Source: Escherichia coli O157:H7 (GTDB taxonomy: Bacteria > Pseudomonadota > Gammaproteobacteria > Enterobacterales > Enterobacteriaceae). Taken from it: DNA of 64,000 nt. Location: the NCBI RefSeq assembly GCF_013167455.1, contig NZ_CP038328.1. One strand, given 5' to 3'. Made by a program: the position numbers. Within the stretch, counting starts at the first letter, position 1, and each line of letters starts with the position of its first letter. Shown piece by piece: positions 18,001 to 21,000 of this stretch.

Positions 18001-21000
18001 AAGCCTCGACCTGTTAAAAAGCCACGCAGCACACTTCAGAAAGTATATAAAAAACAATATGTCGTTATATAAATAAGGAAATTGCATTGCATCATGGCAT
18101 TTCATAATATGCGTTAATTGTTCTTTTTTATATTCTCTGAGGGAAATATGTTCCTGGACTATTTTGCACTGGGAGTGCTTATTTTTGTATTTCTGGTGAT
18201 ATTCTATGGGATTATTATTTTACATGATATTCCCTACCTGATTGCTAAAAAACGTAATCATCCTCATGCCGACGCCATTCATGTTGCTGGTTGGGTGAGT
18301 CTTTTTACGCTGCATGTTATCTGGCCATTTTTGTGGATTTGGGCCACGCTTTACCGCCCGGAGCGGGGATGGGGAATGCAAAGCCATGATTCATCCGTTA
18401 TGCAACTGCAACAGCGCATTGCCGGGCTGGAGAAACAGCTCGCCGACATCAAATCCTCTTCTGCCGAGTAATACTTATGGATTTACTGATTATTTTGACC
18501 TATGTGGCTTTTGCATGGGCAATGTTTAAGATCTTCAAAATTCCCGTAAATAAATGGACCATTCCCACAGCGGCCCTGGGTGGAATATTTATTGTCAGCG
18601 GTCTAATTCTGTTAATGAACTATAACCATCCGTATACCTTTAAAGCGCAAAAAGCGGTTATTTCTATTCCTGTTGTCCCACAGGTGACAGGCGTGGTGAT
18701 AGAAGTGACGGATAAGAAAAATACGCTGATTAAAAAAGGTGAGGTGCTATTTCGACTGGACCCGACGCGTTATCAGGCGCGGGTGGATCGGCTGATGGCG
18801 GATATCGTTACCGCAGAACATAAACAGCGGGCGTTGGGCGCAGAGTTAGATGAGATGGCGGCGAATACTCAGAAGGCAAAGGCCACGCGGGATAAATTCG
18901 CTAAGGAGTACCAGCGTTACGCACGCGGCAGCCAGGCGAAAGTAAACCCGTTTTCAGAACGCGATATTGATGTGGCACGGCAAAATTATCTGGCGCAGGA
19001 AGCCTCCGTAAAGTCATCGGCGGCGGAACAAAAACAGATCCAGAGCCAGCTGGATAGCCTGGTGTTGGGTGAACATTCTCAAATCGCCAGCCTGAAAGCG
19101 CAGCTCGCGGAAGCAAAATATAACCTTGAGCAGACGATAGTGCGTGCGCCGAGCGATGGTTATGTGACCCAAGTGCTGATTCGTCCGGGTACCTATGCCG
19201 CGTCGCTGCCGCTACGTCCGGTGATGGTGTTTATACCCGATCAGAAACGACAAATCGTGGCGCAGTTCCGTCAGAACTCCTTGCTGCGCCTGGCTCCCGG
19301 CGATGATGCGGAAGTGGTATTTAACGCTCTGCCAGGCAAAGTGTTCAGCGGTAAGCTGGCAGCCATTAGTCCAGCTGTTCCCGGCGGAGCTTATCAGTCG
19401 ACCGGCACCTTACAGACGTTAAACACAGCGCCGGGTTCAGATGGCGTTATCGCGACCATTGAACTGAATGAGCACACTGATTTGAGCGCTTTACCAGACG
19501 GTATTTACGCTCAGGTGGCGGTCTACTCTGATCATTTCAGCCATGTCTCGGTGATGCGCAAAGTGTTATTACGCATGACCAGCTGGGTGCATTACCTTTA
19601 TCTCGATCATTAATCTTCGCTTTCCGCCGCTTGTTCAGGCCGCAGTTGCTGCGACTGAGCAAGCTGGTGGCGAATTTCACGCAGCATTTCATCCAGCACA
19701 TACTGGACCCGCCAGGGCTGGTATTCCCGTTTACGGAAGATAGCCACCAGATCCAGCCACCATTCATACGGGTGCTGAAAGCAGGGCACCAGCGTGCCGT
19801 CTTGCAGATCGCTCTGCACACTTTTGTCTGGCGCAAACACAATCCCCAGGTGATTTCGTGCCAGCTCCAGCGCCGATTGCGTGTTATCGCAAACGTAATT
19901 TCCCTTCACGCGATAATCCCGCACCTCTTTACTCCCGGCGACGTTGAAGCGCCAGATATTCGCGTCGTCGATCATCATCGAGTCGATCAAAATACAGGAG
20001 TGATGTTCGAGTTCGTCAGGACGGCTAATAGGATGTTTCTCAAGATAGCGCTGGCTGGCATAAGCGGTTACGGCATATTGGGTAATAAAACTGGCAACCA
20101 GCGATTCATCTTTTGGTGGGGCATAGCTGATTAAAACATCACAATCATCAGGAAATTCGACGCCTTCATAAAAGGCATTACGCTCAAGATTGCAGGTTTT
20201 TAGCGATAAGGTGATATCACCGATATCTTTAATTTTATCGATTACATGTTTGGATAAATAGGTAATTATGCCGGTTGGGGCGTAGATGGTGACCCGACCA
20301 CGTTTCTCATGCTTATAATCTGCAATAAAATTATTAAGCTGCTCGTTTCTGTCCAGCATGTCGTTGATGTACGGTAATAGCGCGGTGCCAAAAAGTGTGA
20401 GCATCAGTTGTCGGGTGGTTCGGTCAAAGACTTTTAAACCCACTTTTGATTCAAAATCAGCAAGATATTTGCTGACGTTGGCCTGTGCGATGCCAAGTAC
20501 AGTCGCGGCATGGCTGATATTTTCACTGGCAGCGATTACCGAGATAATTTTTAACTCCCGGTACTTAAGTTGTAATTTTGTCATCGCAACAGCCCAATTA
20601 TATATAATTTTATATATTACTATATAAATATGAATCTTGCACCGGAGAAATTGTAAGCATTACTATGCCGACTCTTTTTTATCTTATTTTAAAATGGAAT
20701 ACCGGACATGTTAATTAACCGCAATATTGTGGCGTTATTTGCGTTGCCTTTTATGGCAAGCGCAACTGCTTCTGAATTATCCATTGGTGCTGGTGCGGCT
20801 TATAATGAATCGCCTTATCGCGGTTATAATGAAAATACAAAGGCAATTCCGCTGATTAGTTATGAAGGTGATTCTTTTTATGTTCGTCAGACCACGTTAG
20901 GTTTTATTCTGTCGCAAAGTGAAAAAAATGAACTTAGCCTGACCGCATCCTGGATGCCGCTGGAATTTGACCCTGCCGATAATGACGATTATGCCATGCA

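What the first reader, a model, noticed from the sequence alone, without database searches (positions are those of the whole stretch)
19610..19613. Convergent yiaV and yiaU share overlapping stop codons in one TTAA
The yiaV stop (TAA, 19611-19613) and the yiaU stop on the opposite strand (19610-19612) overlap within the tetranucleotide TTAA, so no intergenic terminator can exist between these convergent genes. bisC and yiaC show a larger convergent overlap of 32 bp (52243-52274). Such overlaps imply transcriptional interference or antisense effects.
Basis: seen in the sequence. Interest (0 to 1): 0.2.

Follow-up and report, generated by a model that had tools for sequence, protein, structure and literature searches.

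The report
Overlapping stop codons of convergent genes
Two pairs of E. coli genes that face each other really do overlap at their ends (by 4 and by 32 bases), but this is an ordinary feature of bacterial genomes that is already annotated and catalogued, and the idea that it regulates the genes remains untested.

Summary
yiaV (18477-19613, +) and yiaU (19610-20584, -) share both stop codons in TTAA at 19610-19613. bisC (49941-52274, +) and yiaC (52243-52683, -) overlap by 32 bp. The window is E. coli O157:H7, and RefSeq annotates the same coordinates there and in K-12.

None of this is new. TTAA is one of four tetramers named in 2007 as the modal convergent overlap, and E. coli has 58 convergent overlaps. 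A 2025 RNA-seq study already lists both pairs as convergent "excludons".

There is no convincing intrinsic terminator after yiaV, yiaU or bisC. Published bicyclomycin data show Rho-dependent termination of the yiaU-sense strand about 617 nt inside yiaV, and of the yiaC-sense strand about 252 nt inside bisC. Non-overlapping convergent neighbours behave the same way.

The TTAA junction looks passive. YiaU's last 6-8 residues vary, and the junction changes among relatives (TTAA, CTAA, 7-bp TCATTGA, or a 48-bp gap). The yiaC/bisC overlap is kept at 32 or 38 bp in ten further loci. A hairpin inside bisC showed no covariation support.

Regulatory interference is not demonstrated. Interest is low.

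The parts
19610..19613 (.). TTAA tetramer holding the yiaV stop (TAA, 19611-13, + strand) and the yiaU stop (TAA, read from TTA at 19610-12, - strand)
   Evidence: RefSeq coordinates; K-12 has the same tetramer
18477..19613 (+). yiaV, HlyD-family membrane fusion protein (378 aa). Its C-terminus LLRMTSW[V/M]HYLYLDH is invariant apart from V/M at one position in the Escherichia and Citrobacter orthologs
18148..18471 (+). yiaW (DUF3302), lying 5 nt upstream of yiaV on the same strand, presumably co-transcribed
19610..20584 (-). yiaU (LpsR), LysR-type regulator (324 aa). The Pfam substrate-binding domain ends at residue 302; the last 6-8 residues of the 22-residue tail vary
18893..19093 (-). Approximate site (centre 18993) of the published Rho termination region on the yiaU-sense strand, antisense to yiaV. 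It corresponds to K-12 3753583(+), 617 nt past the yiaU stop. The position is imprecise because it was derived from 800-nt windows
   Evidence: Rho score 4.98, p 1.9e-8; coordinate mapping
52243..52274 (.). 32-bp dual-coding overlap: the last 10 codons plus stop of bisC (+) and of yiaC (-)
   Evidence: kept at 32 or 38 bp in ten further enterobacterial loci
49941..52274 (+). bisC, biotin sulfoxide reductase (777 aa). The C-terminal LTAF[E/D]PPASS is conserved, with the last residue P in C. amalonaticus
52243..52683 (-). yiaC, GNAT lysine acetyltransferase (146 aa). TWIM[S/N/G]W is conserved; the 6-8 residues after it vary except for a Q-T pair encoded opposite bisC's Ala-Phe-Glu/Asp codons
52680..53243 (-). 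tag, upstream of yiaC on the same strand with a 4-bp overlap, so the read-through transcript into bisC is probably tag-yiaC
52158..52180 (-). Hairpin TCCCCAGCCGCGAGCTGGGGA (-14.7 kcal/mol) with a weak U tail (GAUCUUUG), 64 nt past the yiaC stop and inside the bisC coding sequence. It is a possible weak terminator or 3'-end stabiliser in E. coli, but the structure is not conserved
   Evidence: covariation test negative
51891..52091 (-). Approximate site (centre 51991) of the published Rho termination region on the yiaC-sense strand, antisense to bisC. It corresponds to K-12 3714344(+), 252 nt past the yiaC stop
   Evidence: Rho score 7.30, p 5.5e-14; coordinate mapping

Best explanation
These are ordinary tail-to-tail gene overlaps produced by compact genome packing, not a dedicated regulatory device.

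yiaU/yiaV: the yiaU reading frame runs through a weakly constrained C-terminal tail until it meets the first in-frame stop. That stop is supplied by the complement of yiaV's own terminal codons (His CAT/CAC followed by TAA gives TTA or CTA). This 'run-on until the partner's stop' origin is inferred.

yiaC/bisC: the 32-bp dual-coding tail is old and is held in place mainly by purifying selection on BisC's conserved C-terminus and on YiaC's TWIMSW motif. This is also inferred.

Termination: with no room for an intergenic terminator and no good intrinsic terminator nearby, RNA polymerase leaving either gene continues into the antisense strand of the partner. That RNA is untranslated, so Rho can load and stop transcription a few hundred nucleotides in. 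Published data show this for the yiaU-sense and yiaC-sense strands. For the yiaV and bisC directions it is inferred. Any mutual interference is a by-product, likely small at the low expression seen, and has not been tested.
For: Ordinary and known:
- Lillo & Krakauer 2007 name TTAA, CTAA, CTAG and TTAG as the 4-bp convergent class, show that 4 bp is modal, count 58 convergent overlaps in E. coli, and find that a stop-codon-mutation model explains convergent overlaps.
- RefSeq annotates both overlaps.

Passive origin of TTAA:
- YiaU's Pfam domain ends at residue 302 of 324.
- Among orthologs the YiaV C-terminus is invariant apart from one V/M position, while the YiaU tail reads AAESED, AAENKD, AVENKD, ASVNDH, DSIIDN or ACQLTDQ.
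- The junction is TTAA in four Escherichia lineages and one C. amalonaticus, and CTAA in another C. amalonaticus through a synonymous His CAT to CAC change.
- It is a 7-bp TCATTGA overlap in three Citrobacter species. There, one A to G change turns the yiaV stop into TGA and the yiaU stop into Gln, and yiaU ends one codon later.
- In C. braakii it is a 48-nt spacer, where a Gln to stop change truncates YiaU.
- E. coli has a back-up yiaU stop in the very next codon.

Old yiaC/bisC overlap: 32 bp in a second Escherichia-like lineage (a metagenomic contig with YiaC 84% identical), Salmonella, C. rodentium, C. amalonaticus, Enterobacter and Pseudescherichia; 38 bp in Kosakonia, Lelliottia, Metakosakonia and one unnamed lineage. 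Both protein tails are conserved.

Termination:
- No convincing intrinsic terminator follows yiaV, yiaU or bisC.
- Adams et al. 2021 list Rho termination regions at 3753583(+) antisense to yiaV (score 4.98) and at 3714344(+) antisense to bisC (score 7.30).
- C:G is 1.4-1.7 over the 200 nt before the bisC-antisense site.

Not special: non-overlapping convergent neighbours show the same antisense Rho regions.
Against: - The exact 32/38-bp spacing of yiaC/bisC persists across genera whose YiaC proteins are only 55-65% identical. That is tighter than a purely passive model needs and could reflect selection on the arrangement itself.
- ExcludonFinder reports that excludon pairs as a class show higher synteny than other pairs and interprets embedded terminators as functional.
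- The C:G profile downstream of yiaU is unremarkable (about 1.0-1.5), so the sequence basis for Rho loading there is weak.
- The antisense RNA in yiaV could start at an internal promoter rather than at yiaU.
- No Rho region was reported for the yiaV-to-yiaU or bisC-to-yiaC directions. This may only reflect low expression in LB.
Confidence: 0.85

Rival explanations
1. The overlaps are functional convergent excludons. Obligatory 3' antisense overlap makes expression of yiaU and yiaWV (and of tag-yiaC and bisC) mutually antagonistic, through RNA polymerase collision and/or RNase III cleavage of the RNA duplex.
For: Both pairs are in the MG1655 excludome, meaning overlapping RNA-seq coverage in at least 50% of 58 transcriptomes. 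As a class, excludon pairs have embedded predicted terminators and higher synteny. The yiaC/bisC overlap is conserved across the ten further loci sampled. Read-through into the partner is real on at least one strand of each pair.
Against: Any pair with overlapping CDSs must satisfy the coverage definition if both genes are transcribed to their stops, so listing is not evidence of regulation. Read counts are low. No reciprocal expression data exist for these pairs. yiaV and yiaW do not appear in the yiaU-knockout tables available to me. The yiaU/yiaV overlap is lost in C. braakii and changes length in other Citrobacter. Non-overlapping neighbours show the same read-through.
Confidence: 0.1
2. 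The hairpin inside bisC (52158-52180, - strand) is a selected intrinsic terminator or 3'-end stabiliser for the tag-yiaC operon, embedded in coding sequence. The region would then carry three layers of information.
For: An 8-bp GC-rich stem of -14.7 kcal/mol lies 64 nt past the yiaC stop. One stem pair shows a CG to GC double synonymous change in C. rodentium, Kosakonia and Metakosakonia. Lillo & Krakauer found predicted rho-independent terminators in 20% of E. coli convergently overlapping genes.
Against: The U tract is weak (GAUCUUUG). No Term-seq 3' end was called at bisC or yiaC in three conditions. The covariation test is negative: 85% of cells paired against 82% in shuffles (55 of 500 as high), the same pair is broken in three other loci, and 3-4 sequences break each of three further pairs. 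RNAalifold does not recover the full stem. The tail is lost in Pseudescherichia. The termination signal that was measured is Rho-dependent and lies about 190 nt further downstream.
Confidence: 0.1
3. One of the overlaps is an annotation artefact, with a mis-called 3' end or a non-gene ORF.
For: Long overlaps in prokaryotic annotations are often mispredictions, which is the subject of PMC2478687 (seen in the listing).
Against: Stop codons are unambiguous, unlike start codons. All four proteins have full-length Pfam domains. Length-conserved orthologs were found for YiaV, YiaU and YiaC, and the gene called at the bisC position is 759-804 aa in the other loci. Overlaps of 4 and 32 bp are well below the 60-bp range usually treated as suspect.
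Confidence: 0.01

Closest known systems
4-bp convergent stop-stop overlaps (TTAA/CTAA/CTAG/TTAG class; Lillo & Krakauer 2007, PMC2174442)
   Same: It has exactly this architecture: two convergent CDSs whose stop codons share a tetramer, in phase (123:213). Orthologs switch between TTAA and CTAA, as the class predicts.
   Different: Nothing differs. This is a plain member of the class. The 7-bp TCATTGA variant in some Citrobacter is one point mutation away.
Short dual-coding convergent overlaps of 5 nt or more, phase (123:132)
   Same: By my derivation from the sequence, the yiaC/bisC 32-bp overlap is in the phase the paper reports as commonest for convergent overlaps of 5 nt or more (49%).
   Different: It is kept at 32 or 38 bp in ten further enterobacterial loci. 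I did not compare that degree of conservation with other overlaps.
Convergent excludons (ExcludonFinder, Sanmartin et al. 2025, PMC12288877)
   Same: yiaU-yiaV, yiaC-bisC and ysaE-hokA are all listed among the 165 convergent excludons of MG1655.
   Different: Classic excludons involve long overlapping UTRs with demonstrated reciprocal expression. Here only coverage overlap is shown, and that is unavoidable when the CDSs overlap.
Rho-dependent suppression of antisense and read-through transcription (Peters et al. 2012, as cited in Adams et al. 2021, PMC7815308)
   Same: Bicyclomycin-sensitive termination regions lie antisense to yiaV and bisC, downstream of the convergent partner's stop. Antisense sites are the largest class of Rho regions (51.5%).
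   Different: It was detected for only one direction of each pair, and the origin of the antisense RNA is not proven.
Bidirectional intrinsic terminators between convergent genes (Ju et al. 2019, SEnd-seq; known to me from the literature and only cited within)
   Same: Both concern how convergent gene pairs end their transcripts.
   Different: There is no intergenic hairpin flanked by A and U tracts here, and no space for one.

Membership tests
4-bp convergent stop-stop overlap class | Two real protein-coding genes in convergent orientation | tested here: met
   Pfam domains are found in both, RefSeq annotates both, and orthologs exist.
4-bp convergent stop-stop overlap class | The stops share one of TTAA, CTAA, CTAG or TTAG | tested here: met
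   TTAA at 19610-19613. CTAA in a C. amalonaticus ortholog.
Convergent excludon | Transcripts of the two genes overlap in vivo | not testable with these tools
   I did not test this myself. It is published: both pairs are listed from RNA-seq coverage, and read-through on one strand of each pair is seen with bicyclomycin.
Convergent excludon | Mutually exclusive or reciprocal expression of the partners | not testable with these tools
   No data specific to these pairs were found. The yiaU-knockout tables do not mention yiaV or yiaW.
Convergent excludon | dsRNA formation or RNase III processing at the overlap | not testable with these tools
   The ExcludonFinder supplements are not held.
Bidirectional intrinsic terminator | A GC-rich hairpin flanked by A and U tracts between the convergent genes | tested here: not met
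   There is no intergenic space. The scans found only weak coding-embedded hairpins.
Embedded intrinsic terminator (yiaC 3' end, inside bisC) | A stable hairpin plus U tract, with the structure conserved or covarying | tested here: inconclusive
   The hairpin is present in E. coli at -14.7 kcal/mol, but the U tract is weak. There is no covariation support and no Term-seq 3' end.
Rho-dependent terminator | Read-through increases when Rho is inhibited | not testable with these tools
   Published bicyclomycin data give Rho scores of 4.98 (antisense to yiaV) and 7.30 (antisense to bisC). No entry exists for the opposite directions.
Rho-dependent terminator | A C-rich, G-poor untranslated stretch upstream (rut-like) | tested here: inconclusive
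   The yiaC 3' region has C:G of 1.4-1.7 over about 200 nt, near the window's 90th percentile of 1.55. The yiaU 3' region is only 0.9-1.5.

The most novel reading that the evidence does not exclude
The yiaC/bisC dual-coding tail is kept at exactly 32 or 38 bp in all ten further loci sampled, although YiaC is only 55-65% identical across the other genera. One reading is that selection maintains the arrangement itself. The obligatory antisense overlap would couple the tag-yiaC operon (DNA repair and lysine acetylation) to bisC (biotin and methionine sulfoxide reduction), making it a conserved excludon rather than a by-product of two conserved protein tails.
Probability: 0.08. Interest if true: 0.35.

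Novelty: already known. Interest (0 to 1): 0.08.

Why it matters
It matters little as a discovery. Both overlaps are in standard annotation. The TTAA class was described in 2007. Both pairs are already in a published excludon catalogue, and Rho-dependent termination inside the partner genes is already in a published dataset.

The follow-up does give two modest results:
- A worked example of how a shared-stop junction drifts by single substitutions (TTAA, CTAA, TCATTGA, or a 48-nt spacer) while one protein's tail is free to vary.
- The finding that the yiaC/bisC 32-bp dual-coding tail is kept in all ten further enterobacterial loci sampled.

If interference were shown, it would add two more cases to a known mechanism.

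Tried and rejected
- Intrinsic terminators: consensus scans and my own hairpin-plus-U-tail scan over the 400 nt after each of the four stops found nothing for yiaU or bisC. For yiaV they found only irregular hairpins with poor tails. For yiaC they found one decent hairpin.
- Conserved embedded terminator in bisC: I aligned 11 sequences from different lineages. The pair count was 85% against 82% in shuffles, and one compensatory pair was offset by breaks elsewhere. Rejected as unsupported.
- Rut-like composition: C:G profiles were modest and not decisive.
- Known RNA families at the junctions: none. The five Rfam hits in the window all lie elsewhere.
- Published 3' ends: the Term-seq tables of Adams et al. 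have no entry for any of the four genes. The supplements of Dar & Sorek 2018 and of ExcludonFinder are not held.
- Effect of the yiaU knockout on yiaV/yiaW: not mentioned in the main text or in the held supplements.
- Annotation artefact: rejected.
- The yibI-yibH paralog pair as a natural control: it has no convergent LysR gene, so it cannot inform on interference.
- Not done: I did not compute genome-wide counts of convergent overlaps myself, because annotation can only be fetched 50 kb at a time.
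Full report
**1. The observation**

The sequence at 19600-19619 reads atctcgatca ttaatcttcg. The yiaV frame ends GAT CAT TAA, with the stop at 19611-19613. On the other strand, 19610-19612 (TTA) is the TAA stop of yiaU, whose protein ends ...AAESED. The ORF table gives 18477..19613 (+, 378 aa) and 19610..20584 (-, 324 aa). It also gives bisC 49941..52274 (+, 777 aa) and yiaC 52243..52683 (-, 146 aa), a 32-bp overlap.

The window is 100% identical to E. coli O157:H7 strain PV15-279 over the 3.5 kb tested. RefSeq annotates the same ends there and in K-12 MG1655:
- yiaU 3751992..3752966 (+) and yiaV 3752963..3754099 (-)
- yiaC 3713652..3714092 (+) and bisC 3714061..3716394 (-)

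All four are real genes with full Pfam domains.

**2. Is it more than chance?**

No. With the frames arranged as here, the complement of a partner's TAA or TAG preceded by a pyrimidine is itself an in-frame stop. yiaV's last sense codon is His (CAT or CAC), so a yiaU frame in this phase must stop there.

Lillo & Krakauer (2007) describe exactly this. [quoted passage not shown] In their set of 1,890 convergent overlaps, 1,218 are 5 nt or longer. E. coli has 58 convergent overlaps, and a stop-codon-mutation model fits the convergent class.

In this window, 3 of 9 annotated convergent pairs overlap: yiaU/yiaV by 4 bp, yiaC/bisC by 32 bp, and a small hypothetical gene with hokA by 24 bp.

**3. How the TTAA junction evolves**

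A scan of one genome per species with YiaV found two kinds of hit. Hits at 84% identity or more have a convergent yiaU. Hits at 73-79% have no LysR gene downstream and are probably orthologs of YibH, the YiaV paralog in this window.

Among the loci with a convergent yiaU:
- The YiaV C-terminus is LLRMTSW[V/M]HYLYLDH, invariant apart from that one position.
- The last 6-8 residues of YiaU vary: AAESED, AAENKD, AVENKD, ASVNDH, DSIIDN, ACQLTDQ.
- The junction is TTAA in four Escherichia lineages and one C. amalonaticus.
- It is CTAA in another C. amalonaticus. A synonymous His CAT to CAC change turns the yiaU stop from TAA into TAG.
- It is a 7-bp TCATTGA overlap in three Citrobacter species. One A to G change turns the yiaV stop into TGA and the yiaU stop into Gln, and yiaU then ends one codon later.
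- It is a 48-nt spacer in C. braakii, where a Gln codon has become a stop and about 31 nt are inserted.

The Pfam LysR substrate-binding domain ends at residue 302 of 324. E. coli also has a back-up yiaU stop in the very next codon.

Together these fit a passive picture. The yiaU frame runs through a weakly constrained tail until the complement of yiaV's end stops it.

**4. The yiaC/bisC overlap is older and tighter**

YiaC homologs are 146 or 148 aa across Enterobacteriaceae, even at 55-65% identity. Genomic context in ten further loci shows bisC convergent and overlapping every time:
- 32 bp in a second Escherichia-like lineage (an unnamed metagenomic contig with YiaC 84% identical), Salmonella, C. 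rodentium, C. amalonaticus, Enterobacter ludwigii and Pseudescherichia
- 38 bp in Kosakonia, Lelliottia, Metakosakonia and one unnamed lineage

In the five of these that I aligned with E. coli, BisC ends in a conserved LTAF[E/D]PPASS (last residue P in C. amalonaticus). YiaC has a conserved TWIM[S/N/G]W followed by 6-8 variable residues. The bisC stop lies opposite YiaC's Ile-Met codons, so a synonymous ATT to ATC change switches it from TAA to TGA.

The simplest reading is that two conserved protein tails pin the overlap in place. I cannot exclude selection on the arrangement itself.

**5. How transcription ends**

There is no intergenic space for a terminator. Scans of the 400 nt after each stop found no convincing intrinsic terminator for yiaV, yiaU or bisC.

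There is one reasonable hairpin 64 nt past the yiaC stop, inside bisC: TCCCCAGCCGCGAGCTGGGGA, -14.7 kcal/mol, with the tail GAUCUUUG. On an 11-sequence alignment it is not supported as a conserved structure. It scores 85% paired against 82% in shuffles (55 of 500 as high). One CG to GC compensatory pair in three loci is offset by breaks in three others.

Published experiments fill the gap. Adams et al. (2021) used DirectRNA-seq with and without bicyclomycin and list Rho termination regions. I checked that the listed read counts reproduce both scores.

| K-12 position | Antisense to | Reads untreated (up/down) | Reads +BCM (up/down) | Rho score | p | Distance past partner's stop |
|---|---|---|---|---|---|---|
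| 3753583 (+) | yiaV | 40/19 | 151/357 | 4.98 | 1.9e-8 | 617 nt past yiaU stop |
| 3714344 (+) | bisC | 90/23 | 60/112 | 7.30 | 5.5e-14 | 252 nt past yiaC stop |

These map to window positions of about 18993 and 51991 on the minus strand. The K-12 to window alignment is collinear with no gaps.

Other points from the same data:
- C:G is 1.4-1.7 in the 200 nt before the bisC-antisense site, but unremarkable after yiaU.
- No Rho region is listed for the opposite directions, and no Term-seq 3' end is listed for any of the four genes. The low read counts suggest low expression in LB.
- Non-overlapping convergent neighbours in the same region show the same pattern. There are Rho regions antisense to yiaF, ghrB, yiaA, ysaA and xylR, where the intergenic gaps are 41-151 nt. 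CDS overlap is therefore not what causes read-through here.

**6. Regulatory meaning**

ExcludonFinder (2025) already lists yiaU-yiaV, yiaC-bisC and ysaE-hokA among 165 convergent excludons of MG1655. Its criterion is overlapping RNA-seq coverage. Genes with overlapping CDSs must meet that criterion if both are transcribed to their stops.

I found no data on reciprocal expression, dsRNA or RNase III for these pairs. YiaU (LpsR) regulates the divergent yiaT gene and the waa operon. yiaV and yiaW are not mentioned among the reported targets or differentially expressed genes I could read. No Rfam family lies at either junction.

**7. Verdict**

Everything essential is already known, including the annotation, the class of overlap, the excludon listing and the Rho data. 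Interest is low.

The most novel reading still open is selection on the deeply conserved yiaC/bisC arrangement itself. I rate that unlikely.

Noticed in passing
window 45863-45886 (hypothetical/ysaE 45863..45934 -, hokA 45734..45886 +): This is a third convergent CDS overlap in the window, 24 bp, between a 23-aa hypothetical gene and the hokA toxin gene. It is also in the ExcludonFinder list as ysaE-hokA. A sok antitoxin RNA hit lies at 45585-45736 (+).
   Followed up: partly
window 1221-2722 (+): yibI-yibH is a paralogous copy of yiaW-yiaV in the same window (DUF3302 plus HlyD; E. coli loci with about 77% YiaV identity were found). It has no convergent LysR gene and a 458-nt gap to the next gene. 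The yiaU partnership is therefore specific to the yiaV lineage.
   Followed up: partly
window 46019-46446 (-): RefSeq labels the cold-shock gene at 46074..46286 as cspE. Rfam finds a full-length cspA thermoregulator 5' UTR there (498 bits), and to my knowledge this position between yiaG and hokA is the cspA locus in K-12. It looks like a naming oddity in the automated annotation.
   Followed up: partly
window about 21578-26237: Between ysaA and yiaT, O157:H7 carries AraC-family, MFS transporter and GH127 glycoside hydrolase genes plus a truncated IclR (yiaJ-like) fragment. K-12 has sgbE and the ysaC/ysaD pseudogenes next to yiaT. Only a 190-bp remnant at 89% identity aligns beyond yiaT.
   Followed up: no
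window 57178-59751 (+): The long polar fimbria usher gene lpfC is annotated as a pseudogene (internal stop) in the matching O157:H7 record.
   Followed up: no
window 52680-52683; also selA/selB and xylG/xylH: Same-strand overlaps are common in the window: tag/yiaC by 4 bp, selA/selB by 4 bp and xylG/xylH by 23 bp. In the other loci, the gene calls in the collection start yiaC 19-23 bp inside tag rather than 4 bp (except L068, the 84%-identity lineage, which also has 4 bp), so the yiaC start codon choice differs between annotations.
   Followed up: no
locus L056 (457-bp contig labelled Terrisporobacter mayombei): A 457-bp, very low-coverage contig in a Terrisporobacter (Firmicutes) assembly is 99-100% identical to the E. 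coli yiaV/yiaU junction. It is almost certainly E. coli contamination of that assembly.
   Followed up: no
window 26800-26842 (+) and 63564-63645 (-): There are Rfam hits to the sRNA ES036 (CssrF) and to naRNA4 (CssrE). Neither is related to the finding.
   Followed up: no
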